A DNA stretch of 64,000 bases. Origin: Marsupella aquatica (lineage: Eukaryota > Plantae > Marchantiophyta). Position numbers and translations under genes: made by a program. Position 1 is the stretch's first letter. Each line of letters opens with the position of its first letter. The stretch lies in the NCBI GenBank assembly GCA_973895155.1, contig OZ316891.1:9735875-9799874 (forward strand). The letters are read 5' to 3'. The notes beneath the pieces are model-generated. The model was given only the letters and a program-made list of their open reading frames with translations, did no database searches and had not been told where the DNA came from. Shown here piece after piece: positions 14,001 to 35,239 of this stretch.

Positions 14001-17000
14001 GCATGATCCATGACTTAATCTATACTTCCTTCTCTTAGCACTTCTTCACCTTCTTTAGGAGGTGTAAACTACCACCCTACAACTAACTCTCTTAGAGTCA
14101 AACGGATATGCAGGCCACACTCGATGGGGACGGTAGAGCATGACGCATAGTCTTTCTTTATATCACCCAATCTCGTTACTTATGAGGTCGATACCTAAGA
14201 AGCATTTAGCACCTTACAAAGGACAAAGGTCCCTTAGATTTTGGCTTAATGCTTGCCTGTAAGGATCAGCACTGTCCTGCAGCTCATGCACGTCCATGAG
14301 ACATTCAAAATGAGTCACGGATTCAAATCTATATGTCTGATTGTTCTCAATTCTCAACTGAAGCATCTTCATCCAAGATGTCCATACGCCTGCACGACGT
14401 TAATTTAGTCATTCATTCTCTCGTAACAGTCAGTTCTGGACTCGTGAGCTGCTGTACTACTACATAGTGTACAGACCTCGTCCACAATGATCTCCTCTAT
14501 GATCTATCGTTCAGACATATCCTTTTAAGTCATTCATTTCTTCTTCATTCCGTCTGTCACTCTCAGCCTTCTCGGTAATGGTTGTTTAACCGAAGTGTGT
14601 AATAGAGGAACGGGAGACATTCTGGAACCTTCCTAATTCCAGTTGCATAAAGCGTAAGCTTGTATGGAGGGATGTTGTACAGGATGCCCTACATCTGTCC
14701 TGCTCTTGGACTGTCTGAGTGGGACTAAAGTAGTTATTAGACCTGAACGTTGGGAAGATGGTCTCGAAGTACACGCCGTTTGCTGCGAGAGTTGCCTCTT
14801 GCCCGTTCGCTTGCACTGGTCTGTACTTGGGAAGTAAATCATGCATGAGCACAGCGAAAACTGCCAACAGAGCCAACGATCCTCCACTAAACAGACCTGC
14901 CACACGCCAGATTCATGCTCAAGGTCATCGAACATGGGAAACATCGATCCATAACAAAATTGTTCTATATTTTAATCTTAATCAAACTCCCAACTACTCC
15001 GACTCTCTGTACTCTTCGTCCTCCATAATCACCGAAGAGTAACTGACAAAATCATCGATTGGCGTAAGCTATGCAAAACTGTCCGGTCGTAAGCTACTTC
15101 AAATCAAGCTCTTTCTGTGCATAATTCACAATGTAATTGTTGCCTCTAAGGCGTTATCCTACGAGTTTCACACGTTGATTGTAGGAATATAGTCGTTTAG
15201 GTTAACAGCAAATGCTGCGCCACTATGTGTTTGCTCTGGTGGTACGTGGGAGTACGACAGTTCAAGGACTAGAAACGATTCTCCTGGCGTATATGTAGTA
15301 GCCACTAGAGCACAAGATGGTAGTAAAATAAATCATAGTTTGAGACGTACCTAAGGCAAACGTGACGTGGTGGGAAGCCCTCTTCTGGCTAGGCCTCAGA
15401 CTCATCATTGCTTTCCGACGATTGTAATTTGCAAATTGTTCTGTGAACAACACCTCGACTTTATCCATGAGCTTCACAATCCTATCAGACGTGTTGAAGT
15501 AGGAAGTCTCGACAGCTTTGAGATACGCAGCTGCTGCCCTCTGTCCCGAAATCTTGTCGTATTTCTTGAGTATCTTTGCGAATGCGACCATGTTCAAGGA
15601 GCTGTATCTCTTCATCATCGCCAGTCCACGATAATACTCGATGAAGGCCGCACGCAGCATTTTTTCGGCCAGCTGGATCTTCTTCTTCGTTATGATGACA
15701 GGATCTGATGCTTTCTGATCTTTGACCTCTGGACTCCTTGAACCCCTCTGCACCTGTTTCACGACGTCCTCCCATAACGTCTGGGACAGCATGGAGATGG
15801 CCGTGCGCGGTGTTGTGATAGGAAGTCTCATTCTCATTATCTTCGGAGAAAGGGACCTCTCGTTTCTTCGCTTTTCCGAGGGGGAATCAGGCGACACGCT
15901 GATCTCACTGCTTTCTCCTTCTAAGTCATCTCTGTCAAGAAGTCCTGCAACGCCACCCTTGCTATCGAGACTAGCGTGAAAACTATTCGTAGTCTTACTA
16001 TCATCTGCCTGAGTCAGATGCAGCGACACCGTATTATCCCGACCCACCTCTAGATCTGTAATATTCATTCGAGCAAGATATTAATGATCATTCGGTTTAT
16101 GTTGGCAACGAACCAAAACATCAGCTTAGTCGTATTAAACATTGCCGAACCATCTCAATGAAACTAAAATCGGGAGTTATCTTGAAAATTTTTCAAAATA
16201 TACTTCTGACGTATATGCGGGATGCCTTTCCAGCACTTTCTAAAACACTCGTCCTAAGCGTACTACTCCTTGAGGCCAGAGGTTCCCAGGAATCTACCAT
16301 TCCCTCCGATGATTTGATTCCAACTTGGACTCAAATCCGAGAGACTAGAATACTTTGCTTGATTGCATAACTTTATCCCAGCGAAACAACAAGAACTGCG
16401 GGGCAGTGGGACTCATTGGGAAACGTACGGATCTCTTTCGCTTTTCGAATCTATATGCTTGTCTACATAAAGATTACAGGAGTTCCGTACTTCAAGATAA
16501 CCAGATTGATGCTGGAGTGACCAGCACGTTCAAAAATAGGACTCAAGTACTTCATGATCGTCCCTTTTATCGACAGCGCGGGAGTGCAAGCGTCCTACCT
16601 GTGATCGATGGATGGAAGGGATGGACAAGGAATCGAGTAGGACCGAATCGCTAGGAATTACCTACCATCTTGATTATCATCGTCACTTCCACATTCTGCA
16701 GCTGGCGAGTGTTGATACCTCTGATCGGAAAAAACTTTGCGCATCTCTAGCAAAGCGCACATTTGTTTCTCGAGAACATCTGCTTGCTCGATGAAGTCCT
16801 TCTCCTTGATTCTGTAGAACTGATTCACCTTGTTGAACTGAGAGTCCAGCCTAGCGAAAAAGGCGGCGTCCAACTCAGAAAGGTTCACTAGCTCAGTTTC
16901 ATGAATCTCCCAGGGATCATTTTCTACCTTTTTCACCTGCAAGGCAAAGAAAGATGATTGAGTCACTTCCAAATACTGTCGCGTTCATACCATGTCACGA

Positions 17001-18706
17001 ATCGTGACCACACTGATAAAATGTCTGCGACAGCTCTACGCAGGTTCGTTCCTTAGCCAACTCGATCTCCCAATTCTCCTCAAAATGTTTCACATCATCA
17101 CGGTACAGACAGCACAAGGCGTTGAATCTATCCGATAAAGCCCATCAGACATCAGCTTACACGGTTCACGGCTGTCGACTAACCATTCTCGAGGCCTGGG
17201 CTCACTTGAGAGCAGAGGAGAAATCAAAATTTTAAACGAGTACATAATTGACTATCTTTACCGATCATGAAGTTCTCACTTCATCAACCAATTGTATATG
17301 CTTCGAAATGATTTGGTTAACAAACTAGAAAGAACAACACCGGGCAGCCCTCAGGAACGATGTACACTCCCAGCACCATTTACTGGATACGACGAGTTAT
17401 GAAATACCCTGGACGGACGTACTGGCTTAATTCGAATCGTTATCACACAACCAAGTTTAACTACTTTCGTTGGACTGTGAAACCACGCTCGTGGCAACAA
17501 TTATTGCAAGGCGAAGCTTCTCGGTTGGAGACAAGACCCAGTTCAATTCACAAGCATGTCGATTCATACTCCCTGATATTGCTAGGCTAGTCAAACCTAC
17601 AAGAAGGAATTTACTTCTATTGAGATTTCCCTTGAGGATCTCTGAAGATCTGAACTCCATCGATCCGCCTCGGACTCTCCCTTCAGCGGACCCTAGGCCA
17701 TCACTAGGGTGAATTGGAATCTATCAGTAGTTGCGTAATTGACAGTTTCAAATAAAGTAACCGATGTACGGACCTCGCGAGTAAAGTCACTTGAAGCCTT
17801 GTCGATGACGGGGTCATTAATGAGCTTTCTAATTTCTACTACGGAAAGACTACAGAACCTTCTCCCTGTGGACTGTCTTATATGCAATGCATCTTGCGGC
17901 ATACTGCAAAGTTGGGCAAAATTTACTATTCATCTCCATTAGCTTTTGAGCCTTAAAGAACATTTATGTAAATTTTTCTGTCTTTCCTAACTTAATGAAA
18001 ACTTTTCAGATTCCCTCTATTCCTCAGAGATTCCACTCTGGCGTTCTCTGAACTTTCGGTCTCTAACGAGTTCACTGGCTTTTGGGAGGGTTGATGCTTT
18101 CCATATTTCGGTCCCGATCTTGATGTTTTCAAAAATTGGACTCTAAATTCAATACTCGACATTGCTCATGCAACAGATCCTCTGTGGGCCTTTTGAAACC
18201 TACCCTGCAGCATTCAACTCGTAGCACTAGCTCCTACAAGTATGCTTCAGTAAAATTTCACGAGAGTACCGGCGAGATGACGACTCCTGGAGCGGTTACG
18301 TAGGACAGTCAAAAAATTGGATGTGGATAGGCCAACAGGAGAAACACAACGCAATCTAGTTATTTGAAGGAAGAGCAAGGTAAATTGGCGAACTAGGCAA
18401 AGCCATTTTAAGCACCTGAACGATAGAGTCCCTCCGTGATCGTCGATTAAGTCTGTGTCCTCCCAAGGCCTGGCCAGTGAGAGCCACGAAAGTCCCTAAC
18501 GAATCTTGCACACGAGAGAAGTTCGACGACCTTCTACCGGACGCGTTACCCATTTGAAATGACGGCGAGCTCAGTTCCTTCGAACGCTCATCCTCTACAA
18601 CCTGCTTCATGTGTTTCAAATCTTTCTTCAGCAGTTTGTAGGTCACATAGGCAGCTCGCCATTCCGGCACAAGCTGTCCGTCCAATTGCTTCGAAAATTT
18701 CACCAT
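11071..18706 (-). CDS. PHO1: PHO1-family SPX-EXS phosphate exporter (~11 exons)
   Basis: N-terminal [23 protein letters not shown]; [16 protein letters not shown]; [18 protein letters not shown]; EXS motifs [21 protein letters not shown] and [20 protein letters not shown]. Ends with TAG TAA TAG at 11065-11073. Confidence 0.96.
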
Positions 18707-18766
18707 CGTCGGAGCAGCGGCCCGATTGTCTTCTTCGTAACCCCTCCACTTCTATTTCACTCGACC

Positions 18767-18787: not shown

Positions 18788-20028
18788 GAAATTCTGTTCC
18801 GACTTGAGTAGCAGTTATTGCCAACAGAAGAGGAAGGTTTGTACGTAGTCGGATATGAATTGGCTCCTCGACGGTGTGTCTATCGACCGAGCAATGCACT
18901 TGATTTATGATATTTTTTTCCAGGCAGTGTTGCAGTCATGTGTTAACCTAGATGGAGAGGACACGAGGACAGTTGCTCGATATCTAGCGAAGTAGGTGAC
19001 GTGCCGATTCCAAGCTCAAATGAGGCATAATCACCCTTTTAAGAGGCATTGCATTTTTATTCGAGAGCACTACAGGAAATCAACATGAGACTTCGAATGC
19101 ACATTTTGTGTGGCTGGAGAGTCTAAACGGCAGCTGCAGTATTGATCGGCAGGCTGCTGGTGATAAACGGAAAAGCCACGTGACACCCTTCAATGGTTGC
19201 TGCTGCTGATCGAGCCTGTCGCTATTCCTTGCTCCAATTGGCCCTGCCTGCCTACATCAAATTGATAATAACAATCAAATGAAACCACGCCACCGAGCGT
19301 GCCAAACACGACAACAAAAAGAACGAGAGCTAGCGGGTAAGTGTGCAATTCGTTGACATGCTAAAAGCCTTCTCATACCATTTGCCTTCTATTTGTAGGA
19401 GTCCAATCTATCCCTTGTGCTCCAGTGTTGCCCATGAACTTTCGATTTCCTCTCCATTCATTGGTTCTCTGTGTCTTTTCAGAGACAAAAAGGCAAGTCG
19501 CATCGATGAGGTTGTATCCGTCACGGAACATTCAAGCAAATCTTCCTTCTGGACTTCCGTCGACGCTGATTATGTCGCTATCAGACAATTCACAGTGAGC
19601 GTCTCTAAAACTCTGGTTACTACCAAATCAATACCATTTTTTGAACTAGTTCCTCGTCAAGAAAGTACCAACACCATGCTCTCTAACTTTCACATCACCT
19701 TCCTCAATTTCGTCTAGTAGCCATGCACTAAAACCAGGCAAGAGACACGTGACGGGATTAGAATTAAGGGAGTCGAATTAAGGGAATGGCCACGCCGACC
19801 CGAATTTCCTCCGTCTCCAATTTGACGGCGTGGAATCAAGACCAGACGACCTCAGGCTTGAATCGAGAATGTACGACCAGTCTCGGGAAAAAACACCGTC
19901 GCAGCAACCGTTACGAGAAGTTCCTTGTGCACGAGGACTCAGACTCGACCAACAAGATTTCTACAACATGGAACAACCGGCGGGGAAACAACTTAGTTAC
20001 CGAAGGCATCGATTGACATGCGAGAAAG

Positions 20029-20341
20029 ATTAAGCACGATTCCAAATATCGATGCACATTAATGAGGCGAGAGGGAGCGTTTACAGGGTATTACACTCGA
20101 CACTGCCACGCTTACATCCGTTTCCTGTTGGGCAGTCCGTACTGAAATCGGGCAGCGTGTTCCTTATGGACCATTGAACTCCCGCACCTGTCCCCAAAAC
20201 TACCACTGCCCTGTCCCTATTCATCTGGGAACCCTCCCGGGCCCGCACCGGCTGTAAACTGCACCTCTCGGGTCGCGTCCCTTCTCACTCCCGGTAATGT
20301 ATCGGGCATCCAGTATGAGCAAATTACATACTGGAGGGGTA
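20029..20341 (+). repeat. Left TIR of the MULE
   Basis: attaagcacgattccaaatatcgatgcacattaatgaggcgaga...catactggagggg. Confidence 0.95.
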
Positions 20342-20645
20342 CGAGGATGCCATACCTAAGAATGCAAATGAGTCCAGAACTTTCCTTCCCGCGCGAGACT
20401 TCACTCTGCCCTATTGCATACTCTTCCAGTCCACGTTTTCGTAGACGAGAATCGAGGTGTGTTCGCATGTGGTGAGTGTTTGCATTACCAACCATTCCTT
20501 TGAGCAATTCCAATGTTGAGGCTCATTTGCGGGTGAATGGTGTGAATGGTATTGATATTCATATCGTTCCAATTTTTCAGAGAGCATAACTCCCGTTGAA
20601 GTCACATACAAAGGGTTCATAGCGCGAAGCGGTAAGACAAACTCA

Positions 20646-21479
20646 ATGTCGATGCCAACTTTGTTTGATGTGCAAGCAGCTGTGATGAGAGAGGAGACCG
20701 GGTACATAGCTCCATGTAGTGTCCATGTTTTTAATTTCATTGCCACGAATCCCTTCCCAAAAAAATTCCTGTATCGAGGTTGTACAGAGGTCCTTCCAAG
20801 AGGACCGTGTAAGATTTCAATAGAAGGTCCAAGGCAGAAGCATTGCAAGCATGATGCGTTGCAGAATGGAACATACAGCAAGTTCTTCCGTTTTGAGTTG
20901 TTGTTAACGGATGGAACACTGGAGGCTAATTACGGGAAGCCAACTTTGCGGGCCGCTGTTTGGGATGCTGTGCGAAATTTGTTGGGCCTGTCCGCGACTG
21001 CCTTAGCCTGTATGGATCCACTGGATCAGTTCCAATTTATCCATGAGGCGGTGAAGGGTGTGCCCCTTTGCAATGTTGTTTTCCGGATGAATCGTGGTAT
21101 TTTGAGTGTGAATGAGTCGGACATTGTAGCATCAAGCAGTACGTTGCCACAGTCCCGTCTCTGGACCCAAACACGAACTCCTACACAGCTTGTAACACCG
21201 CTCGCCTCCCGAGCTCCACGCAGGGCACACTCCCCACACTTACCATCAGCCAATACCTACAACGTTGTTCCAGTTGGGTTGTTAGAGGACTCCACTGCAA
21301 CAACGTCCAATACCCCATCCATGGTGACCGCCAAGTCAGCCAAGTCACCTGTAGGGAAACCGAGGCAGCGTCGTACACCACACCTACATCGAGCAGAGGA
21401 GACTCATCACAGGTGGTACAAGAGGAAGGCGACAACGCAGCAACCCAGGGCACAATGTCAACCATTGTCCGACGCCTAG
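20646..21479 (+). CDS. MULE accessory ORF: RPA1/RPA70 C-terminal-like Zn-binding OB-fold with a basic disordered tail (277 aa)
   Basis: FLYRGC...PCK...HCKH...YSKFFRFELLLTDGT...AAVWDAVRNLLGLSATAL matches the Rep_fac-A_C pattern by eye (YxxC..C..C..C/H; yr.l.l.D.T; fd...llG.sA..l). The ORF is intact and intronless. Confidence 0.65.
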   Translation: MSMPTLFDVQAAVMREETGYIAPCSVHVFNFIATNPFPKKFLYRGCTEVLPRGPCKISIEGPRQKHCKHDALQNGTYSKFFRFELLLTDGTLEANYGKPTLRAAVWDAVRNLLGLSATALACMDPLDQFQFIHEAVKGVPLCNVVFRMNRGILSVNESDIVASSSTLPQSRLWTQTRTPTQLVTPLASRAPRRAHSPHLPSANTYNVVPVGLLEDSTATTSNTPSMVTAKSAKSPVGKPRQRRTPHLHRAEETHHRWYKRKATTQQPRAQCQPLSDA

Positions 21480-21665
21480 CTGAAGTTTTCAATTCATCAT
21501 TGGATGTGTACTCTGGGCGCAACCGTTAGTCATAGAATCAGCTTAGCGTTGGACTTACTTAGTCATTTTGGAAGGAATTTCCGCATTGTGCAATGCCACT
21601 TTTATTCTCGTTTCTCTTCAATGAACACTCCGTCTTGGTGTTCCACGACTACTTGTATGCATTAT

Positions 21666-24600
21666 TGTGACACGGGTAACGTGTCACTTGACCGAACCCA
21701 GGTCGTAGATTAGGACTTATACGGTCATTAGGACCGTAGCCATAGCGTAGAATAGCACGTATAGCCGTCAAGTTGCCATTATGATTAGATTAGGAGTAGG
21801 TTAAGATAACCGAATAATTACGAGTTCAGGAAAGGGATTATTACGCACGACCGAGGTACGGTGGCGGCAGCGGAGTAAAAATCAGTTAGAAGAATCACGC
21901 TTGGACCGAGACGCCGACTTCAGCTCGTTATCAATGACCAAACGGCCTGACCTTCTCACGCTCGGGCTCGTCCAGGCACCCCCATAAGAGAGGAGCTGAT
22001 GGCACTGCGGGCCATTCGCTCACGTTTACCTTTTTGGAATTCACGGATGCTGCCATCCGCTCGCCTTTTTGATTGAATCCAGTCGACCTTTACGAGGAAA
22101 TTATCGAGGGAGAAGAGCGGAATGTGGCGAGATTTAGTCAGGACGAGCGAGGCCTCCGCGAAAAAGGACCAGCCAGGTGGGAACGTGGACGCAATGAACC
22201 GGACTACAAGGTTAGTATGACCCTCACAGCCTTGGGATTTTGGACCTTGTTTGGCGAGGTAGGTGCTAAGTTCTCCAAGACTTACTGGTACTCTTGCCCC
22301 GAGAAAGCCGTTTACGAACGAAGGTACGCAAAGCTGGTAACCAAGGTAGCACTAGTTAATTGCGACAGGACAGCCATCACCAGGGATTCTAGCTATAACG
22401 AGCTGCGAGACTACATCACCGAACTATATCTCAGCGAGGAAGGGCTTAGATCGGTAGCAGACTGAGGCAATTCTTGAGGTTCCAGCTAAGTTCTTTAAGC
22501 TGAAGGGCAACCAGCGGCTTACTCAAGCGGAGTTCGACAAGATTCCGGGGTACCTAGACCAGCAGATCGCAGCCGAAAAGCGCCAAGAAGACATCAGCAG
22601 ACAACGGGAAGCGGCGCGTAATCTCACGTTCCTCGGGGAAAGCTCCAACGCCTTCAACTGGGATATGGCTACCCCAGCGCCTCAACCGATGACCACCGGA
22701 GTACCGCCGAACCAGTCCCAAGTCCGTCCAGTAATCAACGTGGAGTGTTCTTTGGGTTCCGAGCGAGCTAGTCCGCAACTCGAACAGCGTCCTCGTAAGC
22801 GGTCAAGGACTACGACGGCCCCCGAATCAACACGGACCGATGCCGCGCCTGCACCTGCCCCGGCAAACCCCCCGACCAACCAGACCCGATGGCCCCCGGA
22901 TAACCTGAAGTCCAACTTATTACAGGTAATCCGCGTCCCCGAGGTAGTCTGGATCGCGATCAAGAAACTCGAACATGCGGACTATCTCAAGGAGCATCAG
23001 TTGGAGCGGTTTGCCCACTTACTATGGAGGCCGTGCGCCGCCGGGCCGAAGGAGATTTGTGAGTTCATCTCCAATTTCGACACTGATGCGTCAACCACCA
23101 AGGTTTCGGGGCAGACCTTATCACTCACAGAGCATCGGTTAACGCAAATTTTCGGCCTACCAACCGGGCCGGTGCCGGTGGAAATCCGAATTCGGGATAA
23201 GGAGTATACGCCGCGGCACTTCAAACCCGAGGGTAAGACGGACAACGGATACAAGCAGGGGGCGTGCACCAACTTAACCTGTATGGAGCGGCTTAACTTC
23301 ATACGGACTACCCTACACATGATTGAGCCACGATCCGAGATTTCCCTCTGCATAATCGTGCAGGTGGAACAGTACAAACGACGAAACTGGGCCCAATTCT
23401 TCTACTGAAGATTCTCAGGGGAGCTGAAGCGGGCTCAGGGGGGTATGGCTATTGGAGGGAAGACTTACTTGGGAAGTCATATCGCCATTATCCTCGCCTG
23501 GTACAAGGCACGGCGGGAGGCTAGAGGAAAGAATACGGCCACCTCAGCCCCGGGTAATGTCACCCCCGCCCCAGAGGAGGCAACCCCTACTACGCGGACT
23601 ACTGTCCCTCAGACAAACCCTGAGCCGGAAGCCCCGACTAATACTCCGCAACCGCCCCCTGTGGAAATTCCATCGCCTCCTTCCGTTGAGCCTCCGCTAC
23701 CTGCAGTACAACCACCCCCAATCCCTCCACCACCTGAAGAAACCTTCCCCTCCCCAGCACTGACTACGGAGGAGCTCATTGCCCCTGCCGAGGAACCACC
23801 GGTACCCGAGAGGATGGAGGACTACCAAGTAGCCCCGGGGACCATGGCCTACGACCTGGTCCAGAAGTTTAGCCAGACTATGTCTGGGGAGTTGGCGACA
23901 TACATCGGACAACAAGTCTCGACGTACTTTCAGCCAGCCTTCTTCATGTTAGAGCACCAACCACGGATCGTCAGCCGCTTGGAAGAAGAACTCATGGCGA
24001 AGGGGAATGAGATCGAGCGTCTCCAGATGCTGGTAGAGCACCTCGAGGAGGAGGCAACGACCCGCCGCGAGGATTTAGTGTGCATTGTCGAACAGAGGGA
24101 CGGACTAACCTAGGAGTTAAGAGGAGCGCAGGCCAAACTCAAGAAGCTGGACGACACCGTGCTTCAATTACGCTCAGAATCTTTGGCTCGGGTTACCAGC
24201 CTGACCGACCTCAACAAACAATTCCTGCAGGCAGCACAGCAGGTGGCTAGTCTCTCTGCCGAACGAGATAAATTGCTAGCGCAGGACCAGGTCCATCGCG
24301 ACGCCATCGACCAGCTCAACTTGGAGGTGGCGCGGCTCCAGACTGAAGCCGATGAAGCTGCAAACAAGGCGGAGGAAGCATTACGGGACAACAAGGCTTT
24401 GCAGGACCGCGTCACCCTGCTCGTCCTCCAGCGGGGAAAACCTGGGCCCACCTCTGATCAAGGCGGCTCGAGGTCTCGCCCCGACAAGGGGACCAGCCCT
24501 GGTCCAACCACTGCACACACGTAAGGGGTAGTTAGCGAAGGGTAGAAGCAGGCGCCGCGCGAGGCGGTTAAGTCAGCGGCATCTTTTAGTTAGGCGTAAC

Positions 24601-25507
24601 GACAGAATGACTGTCATTAGGCGCCGATTAGCGGCAGTAGGAAGAATTAGGGCCGGTCAGTTAGGATCAGCCAACGTAGGATTGAGTCCATCAACAGACT
24701 AGAGTTGGTCAGTAGGCTTGGCCGCTGCCATTCCGGTTGGCACACTCGTAGTCGACGGTCAACCGGTCAGTGCAACGCGACCAGTAGTCAGCAGTTAGTT
24801 AGTCAGTAGGTAGTACCCCGGAAGGTAGTATCCTCCGGTTCTCTTCCGCTATGGTAGTATTTAGGCTTCCCCTTCCGCGATGGGAAGGGGGAGAAGGCTT
24901 AGTTATCTCAGCAGAAGAAAGGCGAGGCACGGGGAGTCCTGGCCTGAGTAGGGTCAGAGCGTACCAAGGAGTGAGAGCCAGAGTCGAGCTTGCTGGGCAA
25001 GTGCGAGGCAGGGCCTCGTAGAGACTGGGCATCAACTGCCATTGGGCCTGCTGACCCCCTTTGAAGTCGAGTCAACCATGTAAACTGATGCTTCGCTGAG
25101 TAAATGTAGTCTTTTCCCCCTAATGTTTTTGAGCGTAACTGGTGTTGTGTGTATGCTTTGTCCGGGCAAAGGCACCATTTTAAGGGACGTACCGGGTGCG
25201 GACTAATGGTAGGGATTGCCACTCATTGCATGTCACAAGGTCCTATCACGTCGATGGCTTGAAAAGCCCCAAGTCGGGAGTTAGTCCGCGTCACTAACTG
25301 AGGGAAAATTCCAGCGGTGGAAAATAAATATACCTATGACAAGTACGAATTATGCGAGTGTTATACCAGTAAGTATAGCGACTTAGCCCGACTTAGGGCT
25401 ATTGAAGGTCACTACACACCTCCTTGCCCGAACCCTCACCCCTACTGGTGGTCGAGGTCGCACCACGACACTAACCCGGATTTAAGGCCCAGGGTAGGGG
25501 TGCGACA
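21666..25507. mobile_element. Nested 3.84-kb TG...CA element with 5-bp TSD; probable Ty3/Gypsy-type solo LTR
   Basis: Begins tgtgacacggg and ends ggggtgcgaca. attat is duplicated at 21661-21665 and 25508-25512. No internal repeat of either end, and no PBS, RT or integrase seen. Confidence 0.8.
21960..24524 (+). pseudogene. Decayed long ORF inside the nested element: plant-transposon-type domain, Pro-rich linker and coiled coil
   Basis: ORFs 22665-23408, 23445-24113 and 24159-24524 share one frame, separated by single TGA/TAG codons. The frame extends upstream to ~22464 and joins ORF 22073-22465 through a frameshift. Motif ICEFISNFD...KVSGQTLSLTEHRLTQIFGLP. Confidence 0.7.
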
Positions 25508-25837
25508 ATTATTGTACCAAACGTTTTTTTATGTCGCACACGGTGTTGTCGCTACTGTGAAATTGAAATGTTTTAATTAGTTTATCCACTCACTTTTATT
25601 GCATGCCTTACATGTAAATTGTATCGATTGGCCTCCAATTATTGAACAATGCCATGCAATTGTCCGACACCTATCCATTGGAAATGACAGTATACCAATC
25701 ATTGTTGGACGACATGAGTGCTTGAGAATCACTCCATGCAAGACTGAAAAACTGAAACTGTAACGTACATTCTTACTCACAAACATTTTACATTTTACTG
25801 AGCACGTACCTTCATATCTGTTGCAGGTGTCAGGGAA

Positions 25838-28073
25838 ATGGCGCGAACAAAGAACCAGGTAAGTCTTCAATGTCTTCACATAGTAGTTACATTTACAATG
25901 TACATGATTGAATGATGATTGCAGGATTAGGGTACTATTTGCGCTCATTTACAATATTCATGCAGGTTACTATTCTCCCATGCCTCTAATTAAGTGTCAA
26001 ACTTGCCTCAGTTTAGAGTTAGTTCAGAATGTTCTCTGTTGTTGCCCCATTATGTAACTCACTCTGTAACTCACTCTGTCATGGGTTTGTGTATTGTCAG
26101 GCTGCTAATCAAAGATTGGCTATGTGGAAGTCTCACACTCCGACCTCCCAGCCAACTGTCATGCACAGTCCCAAGTTAAATGTCCCCACCATGCCTGAAC
26201 CAACCCCTCCGGTTCTTGCTCTACCACCACCGCCCGCCCGTGAGGAAGCTTCATCTCAACCGCCCCCTATTCCTAGTGATGCACAGTGTTTGCTGACTCC
26301 CGTCCTGGCTCTACCAGCTCCATCAGCCTATGTCCCCAAGATTGTCAAGCCCCAATTGGCAATTGAAAGTGGCCCTGTTGTGCATACAATTTTAGCGCAA
26401 ACCCATGCCACTGAAGACGACGATGTGGTCATGACGGCAGTATTGCCAGGTCCCTCCATCGGTGTGGTCCCTCCGACTACCGGGAAAAAGAGAAAATCCA
26501 ACGCTGGTAAAGCAAACTTGAACACTCACACCAGGTTCACTCCACGAGCAGCAAAGGTTGGGATTCAGTATAGAGAGCACACCAGGATTGCGTCACAAGA
26601 ACCAAAGGTGCCGCGTCAATCCAGCCAACATTCAGGTTGTGGGTTGGTCAGTGAAGAACCAGACCCAAAGACAAGCATCCGCAAAGAGCGGAAGTGTCAA
26701 GTGGACACACATTCTTCCCAAATTAAGAATGTGCCAAAGCTTGCAAAGTTCTGCAGATGTGCAGCTTTACCCGAGCCATGTGCACACTGCAAACTGGTAA
26801 GAACTATTCGTGCTCCAAGTCCCTCTGCAGGTACATATATGGTGTATTTCATTCTTGAGTTATACATGGCGCTCATGTCACAAATATTCTGCCCAATTGT
26901 GAACAGGAGTCAGACATAAGAAGCCACGTCAAGGAGGGAGTTCATTTTTCTGTTTATGGGGCCGGTGCTGTTTGTAAGATGTTGCCATGCAAGAACATGG
27001 TTTTCAAAACCCAACGCACGTATGGGTGCCATGTTTTCAAGAAGCATGGCCTCATCAGCAAGGGAACCCCACCATCGTTGTACACAAATGACCCAGTTGC
27101 TCAACGGCAACGTGAAGCGCGGAACGCTGCTCGAAGGAAACAGCCTGGAGCTACAGCATCACCAAATTACGTGAATGTGAGGGGGACGTTGCGACAGCGA
27201 TGGAGCATGGCAAAGAGATGGGTGAAGTGAGTTCCTCACTGAATCATTGCTCTTCACATTGTGCAAGTCCTGCTCTTTTCTTGAACTGACTAGCTGTAAC
27301 AAAATTGTTATGTTGTTGTAGGTCAACTACTCAATGCAAGTTTGTCACTAGATTTGAGGAAAACCGAGCACGAACTCCACAACCACCAGTTGAATCTGAA
27401 ACTATATTCATAATTTTCTTCAAGTACTTCATGCCTAAACCTGGCTTCCACGCATGGGATAGTCTCATAAGTGACCGCGATTGGGCTTGCCTGCAGGCAT
27501 TGCTTCGACAATGCCCAGCCACATCGTACGTTTGTTCATGGGTGGAGCAAGCCCAAACTGACATTCGCGATGGTGCATATGCACATTTGGATGACTCTGA
27601 CATTCAGCGCCTCACCAGAACTGCTTCAGTGTTGTCAACTTTCTTTGAGCCACTTGGTGGGTCGTTTGAAGCCATCGAAGTCCATGATGCCATGGCAGCG
27701 CAACGCAGAATGCTTTGTGAAGATGCCCTACAGTGGATGCAGCAAAAACGAGACAACCTATTGTGGGATGAGGAGCATGGATGGCCACGGTATCAGATTC
27801 TGGGTGATAACGAGTACAAGCAATGGAAGGCCATGCGCAAACAAAAGGCAATTAACACTTATAAGCCAAACATTGTGGCATTGTACAAGAAAGTTAACGG
27901 ATGCACAGAAGCAGAAGCTATGAAGCAGGTATGGGTTTATTTACTCACCCTACCTCGGTTGGTCTTATTATTACATGTACCTTCTTCCCACAATAACATG
28001 TGCCACCTGGGATGTACAGGTGGAATTGGAATCAGCTTGGACGGACACATCAGACGAGGACCAGATTTCATAG
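25838..28073 (+). CDS. MULE accessory gene (5 exons, ~565 aa): H3-like N-terminus MARTKNQ, Pro-rich region, CxC..CxxC cluster and C2H2-like zinc finger
   Basis: Exons 25838-25858, 26101-26796, 26907-27226, 27322-27928 and 28020-28073 all have GT-AG boundaries with matching phases (0,0,2,0). Motifs CRC....PCAHC and CKMLPC...F....YGCHVFKKH. An acidic tail with 33-bp repeats probably once extended to 28536. Confidence 0.7.
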
Positions 28074-28243
28074 TCTGATGCTGAGGAGAAGGATTCACAA
28101 CTTTGCCTTGATGCAGATGCCGACGACATGTTTGGACATGTACAACCCATTCTCGACATTGTTTTGGACACGCCCGATGCCGTAGTGGGACATGTGTCAC
28201 CCAATGAGTTCAATGAACCAAGTCCTTTGGTGGAACCATTTGG

Positions 28244-28378
28244 ACTCTAATATGGCAGTGCCCCAAGTGGAATCAGAGTCTGACATAGCAGTGCCCCAAG
28301 TTGAATCAGAGTCTGACATAGCAGTGCCCCTTTGTGAACCAGAATCTAATATACCGGTGCCCACAGTGGAACCCGACT
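28244..28378 (+). repeat. 33-bp coding tandem repeat (~4 units, SDIAVPQVESE)
   Basis: gcagtgccccaagt(g/t)gaatcagagtctgacata is repeated, followed by two degenerate copies. Confidence 0.8.
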
Positions 28379-29131
28379 CACCTGAGGGGAATTCCAGGTG
28401 GGCTCATCCGTTGTTGGATCCACTTCCACGTAGTGCCCCTGAGTCACTCGTGGAAATCTTGGAACGAATTACATCAGCGTCAACAAAGTGCGCCGATGTT
28501 CAGAAATTGTTGGACACCTTGGACACTCCTAAGTGAGCCAGTTTTCTGAGGCATTGAGATTAGGCCCATTTTTTGCCCACAAGATACATATTATATGAAC
28601 GTCTTGGGGGGCTATCGGCACTACCTGAAGTTCACTTAAGCTTTTCCCATGCATTTTAGTGTAAGACTCAGGTTGTAATTAGTTCTGTAGCGGGCCATAG
28701 ATTTTGGTGGAGGAATGACGGTTGCCCTTCACCATATAGTACAACACATGCAATTCAGCCCCACGAGGCTTGTTGGTCCCGTGCCTGTAAGTTTGCGTGC
28801 ATAAATATAATACAAGTTTGCATTACTCAGACTCAACTTGTACACATTGGAATGAAATTTTGCCCCGCTATTTTATGATTTGTACATATATATCTCATTG
28901 CAACTACGGTGAAAGGTGGAATTAATAGTGCAGTGGGTTCTGACTGGAAAATGTAAACTTGTGACTCCAGTTGTGCGTGTTTCACGAATGCGCTATGATA
29001 TGGACATGTACTCTCTGCGTGAATTAAAAATGCATTCGAATAGTGACTGGATGCCAAAGACATTGAAGCAAAGCGAACCAATGAAACTTTTTACTTATTG
29101 GCAGAGTGAAGTGGTCATACTGGTCATATAT

Positions 29132-32100
29132 CTAGTCGTCCTTAATGGACACTACAGTTTGACTGACTTCGGCTGGTGTCCAAACGGTGGACGACACTCC
29201 TGCAGAAAAAGCCCGTAAAATTTGATCAAAATTGGGTGACATTGCCCAGGCTTGGCTTGAACCTAATTGTATATTTCCAATAATCCCCATTGTTGTCTGG
29301 CTTAGAGGGGCGTTAAGCACGCATGATTGTGAGGCATGTGTGAGAACATCTTGTAGTGGGAATGGAGCGCATGCTCGACTTTTGTTGTTCCTCCCGGCCT
29401 TGGCAGTTGTGGGGGCGATTGTTTTGTGTGTGCGCTTAGTCTGTGCGCTGGAATTGACTTTATGTCCGTCGGTGCGATCTGTCAAAGCATGGCACATGTC
29501 TGCCAGCGCGTCTATGGACTCCTTCTCGAATTTGGTCTGGAATGACACTGGTTTCTCCTTTCTCTTGGCGTGGACTTTGTCAGGTGCATTTGCTCCAGAC
29601 ACTAAATTTTGCAAATCTCCCTCTGGGTATGGAGCCTGGTTCTCTTTGTTGTTCTTGTCATTGCACCCATCAATTTGTCAACCCAGCCTCGTTTCCTGAC
29701 GATACTTCTGTCAGTACCTTCGCCTGGAGTGAGTCATGGCCCAACTGTCTCTCTAGCTTTCCTACATTTGTTGTGCCTCCCTCTTGAGAATGGATTCCAC
29801 CCAGTGTTTCAAGTCAGCCAAAGCTTGCTTAGCCAGGGTTGGGTGGTATGAGATGGAGTCATAGCAAGCCCTTACGACTACTTGGAACTCCTTGAAAGGC
29901 GGTGATACTTCGATATCCTGCGTGACATCCGGGGATCCTGCCTCCCAAATATCCTCATTGTCGTATGTGAGAGTGATATTGCCTACCTCCGTGGGCAATG
30001 TTGGATTATCTCCTTTGCTGACATTGAAGTGGTGGTCTAGGCTGCCTGAAAAAGAGCCAAATTTTGTTCCCAGCTGATGCAGAATTTCCAACTCAGACAT
30101 CTTCTGTGTAAGCAACAGAACTTTGATCTGCACATGAAACCCGAGATCCCATCGCGGATGAGAATGTGCATGGAAAGGGTGAGAAGACCAGAAGCGTGTT
30201 GTAAGTAACCAACTTATTGATTGCTACTGTATCTTACCTGATGTTTGCATGCATTTCCCTGCAGTGAGAACCTGCATGTACATGAGCAGGTGTCCTTGTC
30301 CCAGTCTATGACTACATGTTCTTTGGGTCCCACACCATAATTCTTTGATGACGTGCTCCGAACTGAGGCGCAAGAGGCCAAACCACAATGAAAAGTGGTG
30401 ACGTAGTCATCTGGGATACCCTTAGCGCGCTGTAGGGACTTGTGCACATGCCCTTAAATGGTCCTGTTCCTAATGCGGCCTTGGAATTTATCAGCACAGA
30501 TGCACCAATAGTGGTTCTCAAGCACTCTTAGTCGCCCAAGTAGCCAAGGTATGGAGCGACCTGTAATACTGTACCGACCCGCCTTCAACTCCATCTTTAG
30601 AGTGTGATGCCAGCGCTCAATACCCCCATTTGTGTTCTGGTTGGCGTGATTGTAAGCTCGTAACTTCACTGCCCAACTACACACTTTGTTGTGCCATTCT
30701 CGTTTGTAATAAACGACAAATCCTGGTTGTGTGTTTCTCCATCGATCCATGAAGGCTTCAGACTCTTCACTCAAATCTGCAGGGAACATTATGCTGTCGT
30801 TAGGTAGACAGCCATATAGACTGAGTTATAGACTTCAGGACTTGTTTGAAATGATTGTCACATGGAGGAAGAAATAATTGAGCTCACCTAGCCCGTTTGA
30901 ATACATGATAGCCCCTAAATCAGCATTAATCTGGGCTTTCGCAAATGGGCAAAAGACTTTCGAGATGATGTTCTTTGTCCAGGCCCTTCGAACGTGCCAA
31001 ATGCAAAAAGTAATATGCACGTCTAGGAATACCTGCCTGAATGAATGAACTCAAGAAGAACACATTTGATTAATTACCATGCATGTGGCAGTTTTTGTTG
31101 AGGTGCAGCGGAATTCATCACGAAAGGCTTTTGTTACACAGACAATAAGCGGGATAATATACCTGATTGCTACGTGCTCCTCATCAGCTACGTCAATTAT
31201 CCAACAGGTTGGCGTCCAAGGGAGGGTGAGATTCATTTCAGCCCTCCTGGCATTGACACGATCCTTCAGGGCATTCAAAGCTCGGCTAACATGCACAGCT
31301 TTGTACGTTTGCATCAGCGCAAAAGCAACGGGAATGGCATTCTGGAATTTGTCAAAGACAACCACCGTGTAAAAAGGAAACTGCAAAACAGAAAATCCCA
31401 CCAAAACCCCCGAATTATCAGGTGGATTCAGAGTGTCATACACGACTGCAGCAAGGTATGTGAATCTTACTTGATAGATGGTTATGCCTTACCCCGAGGT
31501 GATTCGTGCCAAACATGGCATCAAATGCTACTGGCCCCTCATGCCCAAGTTGGGCTAGCTTCTTTTGTTGCCAAGGAGACGACCACACGAGAATGAAAGG
31601 CTGGTTGTCTGCTTTCACCTGAGGCTGATACAACAGAACTTGCTCTTCATTCTGAAGGACCCAGAGTTTTGTGGCTTGTGCTTTGTCCGAGCAATAGTCG
31701 GGTTCACACCGTCGCATACAATCCCGCATAGTTTGCACATCCTTAGGAGTGAGCTGCATGTCTCTGGACATGATGACATCAGCATCCTCATCCGGGTGCT
31801 CCTTACGCCACCTAGTCAGAATTTCCTCTAGATGTGCATCCACAATTGCCCTGGCAGTCAAGCCTGCCCTCAGGTATCGTTCAATTTTGGTCCTCAGCTT
31901 CAACGAGATTCTTGGAGCAATATATATGTGCATTTGATTCAAAGGCTGTGGGGTCTTTCAGGCCATGGCAAATCTTACCACGCCTATCCAAGTGATCTTT
32001 TCGGATCCACTTGATCAATACAGCCCCAGGTCGATCCTCATATTTTGTGGAGGTAAATGAACATCTGCAGCCACGACGTACAGACATTCCTGCATGATGA

Positions 32101-32706
32101 GATCCAAGTTGAAGGTGAGTGACAGTTTCTTACTCGACTTCAAAACAGCAAAAGGTAGTAATCCCAATGCAAACATTGTAATTCTGAGCCCAGAAATAGA
32201 GGTTCACCTATTAATGTTTTCTTCTTGAGAAAGATCCTTGCTTCATGGCATTTGAGTTTGTCTGGTACCTTGGTTGATTTCCAGCCTCGATAATCCTCAA
32301 GCCCATAACAGCAGCAATATAACGTAGTTGTCTTGACCAATGGACCTATCTTATAGATGCGGCTCTCTACCATCTGTCGGGTAGTGAATTGTGTATGGAA
32401 GTAGTCCCACATATTCTCAACCCAAATGAAATCTTTCAGTCTTCCCTCTGGAATCCAAGCATAATCAAATTTTGAACCAAACCATTCAAGAGCAGTAAGT
32501 TCGAATTCACCAGGGCGCGGATTCTGTATTTTATCACATCTCAAATATTCAGAGTGGCTTTTGCGCATGGGTGGAGTAACTGGTGGCACACACTCATTGT
32601 TAACCTCATGGATAGTAAGGCCACGTAAATGCTCCAACACAACATCCAATGCATCTGGTTGCGCAAATTCCTCTCTGGAAATGTGCAGCTCCTCACTGGC
32701 GTCCAT
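29132..32706 (-). pseudogene. MULE (MuDRA-type) DDE transposase with SWIM finger, disrupted
   Basis: Spliced exons carry VAFDAMFGTN (D1), WIIDVADEE (D2), CIWHVRRAW (CxxH), TNGGIERWH (E) and CSCTCRFSLQGNACKH (SWIM). Frameshift near 31920-31930 and in-frame stops at 30454-30456 and 29762-29764. Confidence 0.92.
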
Positions 32707-33045
32707 TATGTGTATATGTTGTATGTTTGTCCTCGCATCCCTTGAGATCCTCTATTGTTCAAAAGGATCGCACATTGGCAAACGCTGGCGCTCCTTCACA
32801 CAACCAAGTGTGAGTGTTCAGAAGTTAGCACGCTGCTACCACGCGCCTCATTCATTTTGGCAGATTGCACGACATTCCTGATCATTCGTGAGTACACACT
32901 GTTGTGGCAGAGAATGAGAATGTAATAGAATGTGCAGAGTGCCTTCCAACATTCCCTCTTGGACTCGACACATGCCAGACCCCGTCCCGCTCAATTAGAA
33001 ACAATATTCCACATTTGAATGCGTACATAATGGATTTAGGTGCAT

Positions 33046-33363
33046 TACCCTCCAGTATGTAATTTGCTCATACTGGACGCCCGATACATTGTCGGGCATA
33101 AGAAGGGACGCAACCCGAGAGGTGCGGTTTACAGCCGGTGCGGGCCCGAGAGGGTTCCCAGATGAATAGGGACAGGGCAGTGGTAGTTTTGGGGACAGGT
33201 ACGTGCGGGAGTTCAATGGTCCATAAGGGACACGCTGCCCGATTTCAGTACGGACTGCCCAAAACAGGAAACGGATGTAAGCGTGGCAGTGTCGAGTGTA
33301 ATACCCTGTAAACCCTCCCTCTCGCCTCATTAATGTGCATCGATATTTGGAATCGTGCTGAAT
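33046..33363 (-). repeat. Right TIR of the MULE
   Basis: ccctccagtatgtaatttgctcatactgg...gatatttggaatcgtgctgaat. Confidence 0.95.
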
Positions 33364-34036
33364 CGAGAAAGGTCTTGACCCGCATTCCATTAAAGATCAT
33401 CATTGAACAAAGTACTTATTAGGTTATCATCATCTTGTTCACTATTTTAAACGAAGCCCCACCGGCGCAACATCATCCCTGTAAAGCACCGAGGAGCGGC
33501 ATCAGCATACACAGCACACCTACTCTGCCTATGCGCATCGCCAGTGGTTCTCCGGAGTATCCGGAGTTGTGTTTGTTTGTCATTTGTATTGGTCGTCCTT
33601 TGCTTCTTCGGCTTCTGTTCAGACAGTCGTATCGTCTTGATTGTTGTCTTCATGCCCGCACCCCCCCTGTATTCCGGTACGCTCGTGTAAATCATGCATC
33701 TCATGAGCGTGTGGGTGCTTCCTATGGGTATAACTGGTTGTTGCCTCCCTTTGATTGGGTCTTTTGCGTGTGAGATCATGTCTCTTGCCTTTCAATTTTT
33801 GGTACCAAATACTTGATTGGGTATACATATAATGGTGAGGAAAATACTTGATTGGACCCTGGAGGGAAGAAAAACCTCATGTCTATTGGTTGAAAGCGTT
33901 TTAATTTTTGGCAGAGTAGTATATAATGGTGAGAAAAAGACTTGATTGGGCCATCCTAAAGACTTGATTGGGCCATCCAAGGAATAAAAACCTGTGAATC
34001 TTTTTATGTTTCTTGGCTGTGTGATATATTTTATAA

Positions 34037-34606
34037 CAGTTTTTTATTAACCTGTCCCCCAAATCACCCAAATTTACTGACGTGCCCCTGAAACATATTT
34101 ATTTATCACCTTGACCCCCATTTTGTATGTGGGTTAACTTTTAACTCACGATCGGGTTTAGGGTGCAACATGGTGACTCGCTATAGGCTGAGCTTAACTC
34201 GCCGGGCTCTCCTTTATCCCCCCTTCCCTTCTCCCTGCCCGACACCATTGCAGGCCCGGGAGGACTTAAAATGCGACCCCACTAAAGAGTCGCCCTTCCA
34301 TGCCGTCCCAAAAATGACTCGTTGCCTCTCGAGGATCACTTGTGGAGGGGCGACCAGTTTTCGGGAGGGACGACCGGGAGGGGGAAGGCCTGCGATGGTG
34401 TTGGGCAGGGGTGAAGGGAAGGGGGGTAAAGGAAGGCCCGGCGAGTTAAGCTCGGCCTATGGCGACTCACCATGTTACACCCTAAACCCAATAGTGAGTT
34501 AAAAGTTAACCCAGATACGAAATGGGGGGCAAGGTGATAAATAAATTTGTTTTGGGGGCACGTCAGTAAATTAGGATGATTTGGGGGACAGGTTAGTAAA
34601 AAGCTG
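34037..34606. mobile_element. Foldback Mutator-type MITE, 570 bp, long TIRs (~200 bp), 10-bp TSD
   Basis: cagttttttattaacctgtcccccaaatc... is the inverse of ...gatttgggggacaggttagtaaaaagctg. tattttataa occurs at 34027-34036 and 34607-34616. Confidence 0.9.
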
Positions 34607-35239
34607 TATTTTATAATGGCAAGAAACTACTTGATTGGGCTTTACACTAAGTGATTCCTGAGGGTTGCAATTTGTACACTTGGAATGATAGCACACTCGT
34701 TTTTTACACAAACACTGCCCAATTTCAAGAGATATAGGGCCAGTAGAGAAGGGTTACACACAACGCCCTGCATGTGTGTGTGTGTGTGCAACCCAACCCC
34801 CAATGCAAGGATTTTGATGTGAGAATTGGCTTCATTTTTGGGCGGCTGCCAAAAATTGTGTCTAATGACAGATGGTCTACCATACTCTTGCTACCCAACA
34901 CTTGCAATTTCCCATCCTTCCTGCATCTAATCCTACTACTTGGTGTACACGTTGCAATACAAAGGTTTTGGAAGAGATATTCTAATGCATTTGGAGTTGT
35001 CCCATCTCTTAGCATGATTGTTTCGAATTGGATCCAATCGAGGATCCAATTAATAAAGTATGAGAATTGCTTCACTTGCTAGTGGATCACTGGTCAATTT
35101 AACTCTCTTGCTCACATGTTTTTGGCTGAGCGATTACCTTATGAATGGGATGTGCCTCACAAGCTCTAGGCTTGGCCCTAGCCCATTCTCAGGGCCACAA
35201 CAAGATATGGATTTTGTTGTTGATAATGAGGGTGATGCA

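What the first reader, a model, noticed from the sequence alone, without database searches (positions are those of the whole stretch)
25838..28073. Transposon-encoded protein with histone H3 tail-like motifs (N-terminal MARTK and internal RKSNAGKA): candidate histone-mimic anti-silencing factor
Seen: a 7-codon first coding exon, ATG GCG CGA ACA AAG AAC CAG|gtaagt (MARTKNQ), is missed by the ORF track and splices in phase to 26101 (AANQRLAMWKS...). Exon 2 also contains KKRKSNAGKA (~26485-26514), matching H3 R8-K9-S10-T-G-G-K14-A at 6 of 8 positions. Downstream are a CxC..CxxC cluster, a C2H2-like finger, a helical domain and an acidic tail; no histone fold is evident. Known: H3 starts ARTKQTARKSTGGKA, a free ARTK N-terminus is what H3K4 readers and writers recognise, and H3K9me/CHG methylation silences plant TEs. 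Inference: a DNA-binding decoy that titrates or recruits H3K4/H3K9 machinery at the element, analogous in function to VANC but different in mechanism. Caveat: both motifs are short, and the second may simply be an NLS.
Basis: partly seen in the sequence, partly recalled or inferred. Interest (0 to 1): 0.85.

Follow-up and report, generated by a model that had tools for sequence, protein, structure and literature searches.

The report
Liverwort transposon protein with histone-like tip
A Mutator-type jumping gene, likely from a liverwort, carries an extra gene for an undescribed zinc-finger protein that is predicted to begin with the same four amino acids as histone H3; that tip would let it bait the host's chromatin proteins, but a chance resemblance is about as likely.

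Summary
The gene lies in a 13.3-kb Mutator-like element (310-bp TIRs, 8-bp TSD), convergent with the transposase, in the position of maize mudrB. Five in-phase GT-AG exons give 565 aa. Homologues (22-48% identical; every named one from the liverwort Calypogeia fissa) run collinear across two of the four joints. No Pfam family or solved fold matches, so this is an undescribed family, not VANC and not a histone. MARTK is likely the true start: a diverged sister family keeps the micro-exon while its upstream intron drifts, and reads a stop just before the ATG. The tip fits the published H3 N-terminal mimicry definition. Against: two near copies read Gln for Arg2; the conserved patch includes non-coding bases; prokaryote genes often start MARTK; RKSNAGKA lies outside the blocks kept in a far copy and likely is an NLS. 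No RNA was available. This copy is likely dead, and the 28073 stop likely premature. The scan has not noted this family before; it noted a like idea in a fungal gene. Mimicry about 0.4; untested.

The parts
20021..20028 (.). left target-site duplication (8 bp, CGAGAAAG)
   Evidence: identical 8-mer at 20021 and 33364
20029..20338 (+). left terminal inverted repeat of the Mutator-like element
   Evidence: 298 of 316 aligned columns match the right TIR
20556..21529 (+). gene A, a second accessory ORF region of unknown family
   Evidence: 307-codon open frame; no Pfam or PDB match of note
21666..25507 (.). 3.84-kb nested insertion with TG...CA ends and 5-bp duplication ATTAT, LTR-retrotransposon-like; ends 330 bp before the ATG of the finding
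   Evidence: junction sequences; many contigs leave the stretch at 25507 (table 7)
25827..25858 (+). 32-nt micro-exon: 11 nt likely 5' UTR, then ATG and MARTKNQ (25838-25858)
   Evidence: AG acceptor at 25825-26, GT donor at 25859; 25821-25852 kept in a diverged family whose upstream DNA is unlike
26101..26796 (+). exon 2: conserved first 16 codons, Pro-rich linker, basic cluster KKRKSNAGKA (26485-26514), conserved block 26525-26579, CxC..CxxC at its end
26907..27226 (+). exon 3: C2H2-like zinc finger and basic helix
   Evidence: 48-52% identical to P0001; beta-beta-alpha arrangement at pLDDT about 90 in the P0001 model
27322..27928 (+). exon 4: all-helical family-defining domain
   Evidence: 23 true phmmer hits; model pLDDT 87.9; no fold match
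28020..28073 (+). exon 5 to the first stop: conserved W-x-D-T-S-D-E motif; stop at 28071-73 likely premature
   Evidence: motif aligned in homologues; homologues run 90-200 aa further
28074..28536 (+). likely former acidic tail in two frames, with a 33-bp coding tandem repeat (28246-28373, 3.9 copies)
   Evidence: open frames; repeat; variants of other copies seen here
29132..32751 (-). multi-exon MULE-type transposase, convergent with the finding; in-frame stop at 30454-56 ahead of the SWIM finger
   Evidence: PF10551 E 0.025 on one exon, under the cut-off; SWIM PF04434 E 5.6e-5, over the cut-off; frames
33048..33363 (-). right terminal inverted repeat
33364..33371 (.). right target-site duplication

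Best explanation
This is the accessory gene of a Mutator-like transposon, likely of a liverwort, whose predicted zinc-finger and helical protein likely binds the element's DNA and likely uses its free ARTK tip as bait for pockets that normally hold the end of histone H3. Steps: (1) shown: gene structure, place in the element, many copies, an undescribed family with liverwort homologues; (2) inferred from a sister family: the ATG is the start, so Met removal would expose Ala-Arg-Thr-Lys; (3) inferred: finger plus basic helix tether the protein to the element, with the tip at the end of a flexible linker of about 230 residues; (4) hypothesis: the tip competes for or recruits H3K4-type readers and writers (unmethylated-tail binders such as the RBBP4/MSI1 subunit of NuRD-like and PRC2 complexes, or K4me3 readers after methylation), which blunts silencing locally. 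The internal KKRKS cluster is likely the nuclear localisation signal and not a second mimic. This copy is likely inactive.
For: Element anatomy. Exact A-R-T-K plus Ala7, about 3e-5 by composition. A diverged family keeps 25821-25852 (2 other letters, 1 gap) while its upstream DNA is unlike, in 3 of 4 runs, and its extra T behind 25835 makes the codon before the ATG a stop. One contig matches 24 letters ending at 25861, the length from the ATG to donor +3, then resumes at 26053. The first 16 codons of exon 2 form a kept block next to the tip. Coding constraint in the family: 7 of the 15 listed exon 2-5 variants are synonymous against 23% expected, p 0.035 (551 rows were not shown). The motif meets the iM-Z-R-X-K definition held by 48 of 20,996 human proteins and enriched for chromatin binders; 7 of 7 tested peptides bound K4me3 readers and some bound NuRD unmethylated (PMC8166343). 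The distant homologue P0020 starts M-A-R-K-K, which also fits. In Marchantia, Mutator TEs are among those de-repressed on loss of PRC2. That MSI1 is a plant PRC2 subunit and that RBBP4 binds the H3 tip is recalled, from no call.
Against: Two near copies read Gln for Arg2, one also Lys for Asn; both changed G's are in CpG, so decay may explain it, but the pair is shared by two copies. The two differing letters of the diverged family were not listed, so its ARTK is not read letter by letter. The kept patch includes the acceptor and 11 non-coding bases, so splicing of a 32-nt exon could explain it. 0 of 26 homologous proteins begin MARTK, though nearly all are partial models; the longest (P0014) has a PLATZ domain in front instead. 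MARTK starts are common without any mimicry: 87 of 120 prokaryote loci with a ribosome-binding site before MA[RS]TK read MARTK, 61 open for 60 or more codons; the six tested are L20, an AAA ATPase with a zinc ribbon, TetR, IS4 transposase, TIM and a hydrogenase. No repeated target motif stands out in 2,137 non-coding bases. DNA binding, expression and any effect on silencing are untested.
Confidence: 0.4

Rival explanations
1. The gene is an ordinary accessory DNA-binding factor of the element (mudrB-like helper of transposition or of its own transcription). MARTK is a short basic arm for nuclear import or DNA contact and KKRKS an NLS; both resemble H3 by chance, and the micro-exon is kept for splicing and initiation.
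For: Arg2 reads Gln in two copies; conservation covers non-coding bases; MARTK starts are frequent in prokaryotes; MEF2 factors, which fit the same motif, are DNA binders (PMC8166343); KK[KR]KS-type clusters without the GKA part occur in P0010, P0012 and P0014; very many genes are screened by the scan.
Against: Two separate H3-like matches in one protein, in H3's order, together 11 of 15 tail positions, are unlikely by the shuffles; the tip sits in the most conserved N-terminal patch.
Confidence: 0.38
2. The tip and the internal motif are the two halves of a captured histone H3 (or CENH3) tail, later split by an intron and a 129-residue Pro-rich insert, and both still act together as a decoy for K4 and K9/K27 enzymes.
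For: Residues 2-8 and 138-145 line up with H3 1-7 and 8-15 without a gap, 11 of 15 identical. MULEs capture host gene pieces (PMC6446971); plant CENH3 also begins MARTKH; fungal hAT elements captured H3 (PMC6710886 abstract).
Against: The far copy's kept blocks end at 26147 and resume at 26525, ten bases after the motif; best match in 26 homologues is 4 of 8; the AG before the internal motif has a purine context and is a poor acceptor; no histone domain.
Confidence: 0.14
3. The ATG is internal: an upstream coding exon (from gene A or the lost promoter region) splices to 25827 or 25834, so there is no free ARTK end and no tip mimicry.
For: Good acceptors at 25826 and 25833, and the frame is open for 13 codons before the ATG in this copy; P0014 shows that family members can carry a long N-terminal extension.
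Against: The diverged family has a 1-base insertion and an in-frame stop between acceptor and ATG.
Confidence: 0.06

Closest known systems
H3 N-terminal mimicry proteins (H3TMs; VRK1, BCL11B, MEF2C, PCLAF; PMC8166343, abstract, passages and one section read)
   Same: iM-Z-R-X-K at the very start, here with the exact H3 letters; zinc-finger protein, predicted nuclear
   Different: those are human cellular proteins; this is transposon-borne and plant; no binding or methylation data; motif not invariant among copies
VANC anti-silencing proteins of Arabidopsis VANDAL elements (PMC5735166, abstract and passages; PMC13547354, passages)
   Same: extra multi-exon gene in a MULE; conserved core with variable regions that hold tandem peptide repeats
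   Different: no DUF1985/DUF287 or MAIN-like Pfam match; has a C2H2-like finger; element has long TIRs; no repeated non-coding target motif found; VANC is described as dicot-specific
mudrB of maize MuDR and other MULE second ORFs (PMC6446971, passages)
   Same: second gene in a long-TIR MULE; convergent layout (for mudrB recalled)
   Different: no sequence match tested or found; mudrB is short (recalled) and has no H3-like tip that I know of
Histone H3-like genes captured by fungal hAT transposons (PMC6710886, abstract; PMC3538342, search listing)
   Same: H3-like sequence carried by a DNA transposon
   Different: those hold the H3 coding sequence; here only 4-7 tip residues match and no histone domain is found
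Internal histone mimics such as G9a ARKT and influenza NS1 (as described in PMC8166343, passages)
   Same: short R-K-S core like H3 R8-K9-S10
   Different: preceded by KK, not Ala; not kept in the far copy; no activity shown

Membership tests
Mutator-like elements (MULE) | long terminal inverted repeats | tested here: met
   about 310 bp, 298 of 316 columns alike
Mutator-like elements (MULE) | target-site duplication of 8-11 bp (PMC6446971) | tested here: met
   8 bp, identical
Mutator-like elements (MULE) | MULE DDE transposase domain | tested here: inconclusive
   PF10551 E 0.025, 15.5 bits against a cut-off of 27.6, on one exon of a domain split over several; D, D, CxxH and E motifs seen by eye
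Mutator-like elements (MULE) | C-terminal SWIM zinc finger | tested here: met
   PF04434 E 5.6e-5, 23 bits against 19.6
H3 N-terminal mimicry proteins | iM-Z1-R2-X3-K4 with small Z1 | tested here: met
   M-A-R-T-K
H3 N-terminal mimicry proteins | motif lies at the true N-terminus | tested here: inconclusive
   in-frame stop before the ATG in a sister family; frame open upstream in this copy; no RNA
H3 N-terminal mimicry proteins | R2 and K4 conserved among relatives | tested here: inconclusive
   micro-exon kept in a far family with 2 unlisted differences; R2Q in two near copies; 1 of 26 homologues fits the motif, most are partial
H3 N-terminal mimicry proteins | Met removal, K4 methylation and binding by H3-tail readers | not testable with these tools
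   needs peptides and protein
VANC | DUF1985 and DUF287 domains | tested here: not met
   no such Pfam match in the window's exons at E 0.1 or in 24 aligned members at E 0.01
VANC | MAIN/PMD-like fold | tested here: inconclusive
   no clear match for either model; best Z 5.5 (rmsd 3.3, 99 aligned) for the core domain
VANC | short target motif repeated in the element's non-coding DNA | tested here: not met
   top 6-, 7- and 8-mers (9, 5, 4 copies) within the range of 100 shuffles; TIRs and the nested insertion were left out
VANC | sequence-specific loss of methylation on cognate TEs | not testable with these tools
   needs transgenes and methylomes
Histone H3 / CENH3 or captured H3-like genes | histone domain after the tail | tested here: not met
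   no histone Pfam match in any exon or homologue; tail identity stops after Ala7 (5 of 15 without a gap)
Internal H3K9-type mimics (G9a ARKT type) | ARKS/T-like core kept in relatives | tested here: not met
   outside the blocks kept at 80% in the far copy; at most 4 of 8 in 26 homologues, few of which cover the region

The most novel reading that the evidence does not exclude
Liverwort Mutator elements encode a DNA-tethered histone H3-tail decoy: a zinc-finger protein of a new fold family whose free ARTK end captures the host's H3-tail readers or writers at the element and so counters PRC2- or H3K9-based silencing, an anti-silencing route unrelated to VANC.
Probability: 0.3. Interest if true: 0.85.

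Novelty: new variant of a known kind. Interest (0 to 1): 0.52.

Why it matters
How VANC-type and other transposon proteins undo silencing is still largely open, and histone mimicry is known from viruses and human proteins, while my searches listed no paper that, by title or abstract start, reports a transposon-encoded H3-tail mimic. A true case would show a selfish element using a viral-style trick, in a plant lineage where PRC2 helps silence Mutator elements, and the claim is cheap to test with peptides. Even without mimicry, this is an undescribed, confidently modelled accessory protein family of liverwort MULEs.

Tried and rejected
No whole genome is held for the window. No RNA holder listed, so the splice joints were not seen in transcripts. 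Word-seeded protein searches with exon 4 and exon 3 for longer proteins found none; the profile search returned 6 proteins, 5 already held. Metagenome scans with exon 4 and with the exon 3 alignment, a viral scan, and a micro-exon DNA pattern in prokaryote genomes found nothing. PDB sequence searches gave nothing under E 0.1. Fold searches gave only generic helical bundles; no histone, PMD or VANC chain was listed, which does not exclude them. The Atlas gave no hit at 0.9 or more and its own model was poor. P0011 was dropped as a repeat artefact of a bacterial protein. A by-eye likeness of the 28189-28533 tail to the end of P0005 was not confirmed (E 29); exon 2 does not align to P0014 (E 12). 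A by-eye RPA70/OB-fold reading of gene A and an HMG-box reading of the last helices were not supported by any search. The bacterial promoter scan does not apply. No complex prediction was run: a tip peptide with a reader would pass by likeness to solved H3 complexes. The paper on VANC across eudicots (PMC9016345) was not held. No supplements were read; the H3TM list (Supplementary Table S1 of PMC8166343) could bear on the base rate.

Full report
Observation. An ATG at 25838 opens seven codons (MARTKNQ) that end on CAG|gtaagt; a T-rich 242-nt intron ends at an AG at 26100 and joins in phase. Exons 25838-25858, 26101-26796, 26907-27226, 27322-27928 and 28020-28073, all GT-AG, give 565 residues without an internal stop. 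KKRKSNAGKA is at 26485-26514 and matches the quoted H3 8-mer at 6 of 8. By composition, ARTK at positions 2-5 has a chance of about 3e-5; 6 of 8 or better arose in 18 of 20,000 shuffles for that 8-mer and in 28 of 4,000 for any 8-mer of the quoted tail. These are per-protein figures and do not allow for the size of the scan.

The element. The gene lies in a DNA transposon at 20029-33363, bounded by inverted repeats of about 310 bp (298 of 316 columns alike) and an identical 8-bp duplication. On the minus strand, 29132-32751 holds a multi-exon transposase with a weak MULE match on one exon (E 0.025, under the cut-off) and a SWIM finger over the cut-off. TIR length and an 8-11 bp duplication fit Mutator-like elements, several of which carry extra ORFs (PMC6446971, passages). 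The finding is convergent with the transposase. A further ORF (gene A) and a 3.84-kb TG...CA insertion with a 5-bp duplication (21666-25507) lie upstream. This copy is likely dead: the transposase has an in-frame stop at 30454-56, the insertion ends 330 bp before the ATG, and the stop at 28071-73 is followed by acidic open frames to 28536, while homologues run 90-200 residues beyond the same motif.

The protein family. Exon 4 against 1.84 billion representatives gave 24 hits at E 0.001 or better, 22-45% identical. One (P0011) is a repeat artefact. Of the 24, 12 are unnamed products of the leafy liverwort Calypogeia fissa, 8 are unnamed Logan proteins, 1 is the artefact and 3 were not looked up. 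The host is therefore likely a liverwort. Homologues run collinear across my joints 27226^27322 and 27928^28020, which supports those two splices; the first two joints are not covered by any homologue. The shared core is a C2H2-like finger, a long basic helix, a helical domain rich in conserved Trp, and a W/F-x-D-[TS]-S-[DE]-E motif before an acidic tail. AlphaFold models are confident (P0001: mean pLDDT 77.3; core of exon 4: 87.9, pTM 0.75), but neither Pfam, PDB sequences nor fold searches (best core Z 5.5, rmsd 3.3, 99 aligned) name a relative.

Is MARTK the N-terminus? In this copy the micro-exon has acceptors at 25826 and 25833 and the frame is open for 13 codons before the ATG, so an upstream coding exon was a real rival. 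Contigs of four DNA runs from two studies show many diverged copies. In 3 of 4 runs a diverged family matches only 25821-25852 (2 other letters, 1 gap), is unlike the window upstream, and carries an extra T behind 25835, which makes the codon before the ATG a stop. The bases between acceptor and ATG are then likely UTR and the ATG the start. One contig of run X2 matches 24 letters ending at 25861 and resumes at 26053, as expected if the micro-exon is kept while intron 1 drifts. The best DNA holder may be the source of the window; the diverged copies are other loci in any case.

Is ARTK conserved? Not shown. Two near copies carry G>A at 25843 (silent) and 25845 (Arg2 to Gln); one also has Asn5 to Lys. 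Both G's are in CpG, and CpG is depleted in the gene (observed/expected 0.52), so decay is plausible, but the pair is shared by two copies. The two differing letters of the diverged family were not listed. The kept patch includes the acceptor and UTR, which splicing alone could explain. None of 26 homologous proteins begins MARTK, but nearly all are partial models; P0020 begins M-A-R-K-K directly before the finger, with an uncertain start, and P0014 has a PLATZ domain in front.

The internal motif. A far copy in run X1 keeps blocks 26095-26147, 26525-26579, 26921-27058 and 27174-27232 at 80% or more; these are residues 8-23, 149-167, 244-290 and 329-346. RKSNAGKA (residues 138-145) ends ten bases before the second block. 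Homologues reach at most 4 of 8, and three carry KK[KR]KS-type clusters without the GKA part. An NLS is the likelier reading. One oddity stands: residues 2-8 and 138-145 line up with H3 1-7 and 8-15 at 11 of 15, as if a tail had been split by a 129-residue insert.

Base rate. MARTK alone is weak evidence. Plant CENH3 peptides also begin MARTKH (PMC10264360, PMC11288735, one passage each). On the other side, the relaxed motif iM-Z-R-X-K marks 48 of 20,996 human proteins, enriched for chromatin binders; all seven peptides tested bound H3K4me3 readers when trimethylated, several bound NuRD unmethylated, and three were methylated by Set7/9 (PMC8166343: abstract, passages, section 16). So a free ARTK end would likely bind such pockets in vitro; whether selection keeps it for that is the open point.

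Mechanism. I commit, at 0.4, to a DNA-tethered bait: finger and basic helix likely hold the protein on the element, and the ARTK tip on a long flexible linker likely engages H3-tail pockets and blunts silencing locally. Nearly as likely (0.38) is a plain accessory factor with a chance basic start. A split captured tail (0.14) and an internal ATG (0.06) are less likely.

Comparison. It works, if at all, like VANC in purpose and like the H3TMs in means. It is not a VANC: no DUF1985/DUF287 match and no repeated non-coding motif above shuffles; VANC is described as dicot-specific and MAIN-derived (PMC13547354, passages). It shares with VANC a tandem peptide repeat in its variable tail. It is not a captured histone gene of the fungal hAT kind. 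Four paper searches listed no report of a transposon-encoded H3-tail mimic by title or abstract start, and one none on this family; subscription journals are mostly not covered. The scan's notes hold no look-alike of this DNA or protein, one like idea in a fungal gene, and several other elements of this genome with chromatin-related cargo; these are unchecked leads.

Verdict. Observation confirmed; a real, undescribed accessory family of liverwort Mutator-like elements with an H3-like tip at its likely N-terminus; mimicry plausible and easy to test but not shown; second motif likely an NLS. Interest 0.52.

Noticed in passing
window 21666-25507: 3.84-kb insertion with LTR-like TG...CA ends and a 5-bp duplication that holds a 2.4-kb run of reading frames (22073-24524) broken by stops, with no Pfam family; its 3' end is highly repeated in all four runs. 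A large solo LTR that carries a gene, or a truncated retroelement.
   Followed up: partly
window 20556-21529: Gene A, a second accessory gene of the same Mutator-like element, with a Cys-containing beta-rich look (RPA70-C/OB-like by eye only); no Pfam or PDB match.
   Followed up: partly
protein P0014 (Calypogeia fissa): A family member with a PLATZ transcription-factor domain (PF04640, E 4.9e-19) in front of the finger and helical domain: a fusion or capture, or a merged gene model.
   Followed up: partly
window 28038-28064: A W/F-x-D-[TS]-S-[DE]-E motif is the best-kept short motif of the family beyond the helical domain; it may be a phospho-dependent docking site and may matter more than the H3-like pieces.
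   Followed up: partly
window 26101-26147 and 26525-26579: Two short blocks of the otherwise variable exon 2 are kept in far copies; their function is unexplained.
   Followed up: partly
window 39687-40514: Array of an 89-bp unit, 9.3 copies, 91% alike, with internal inverted repeats.
   Followed up: no
window 34036-34607: 221-bp inverted repeat, 88% complementary, 130 bp apart: MITE-like.
   Followed up: no
window 11800-18750 (-), 45818-48036 (+), about 51300-51900: Host genes around the element: an SPX-domain gene (PHO1-like by eye), a beta-helix gene and an RNA polymerase Rpb5-like gene.
   Followed up: partly
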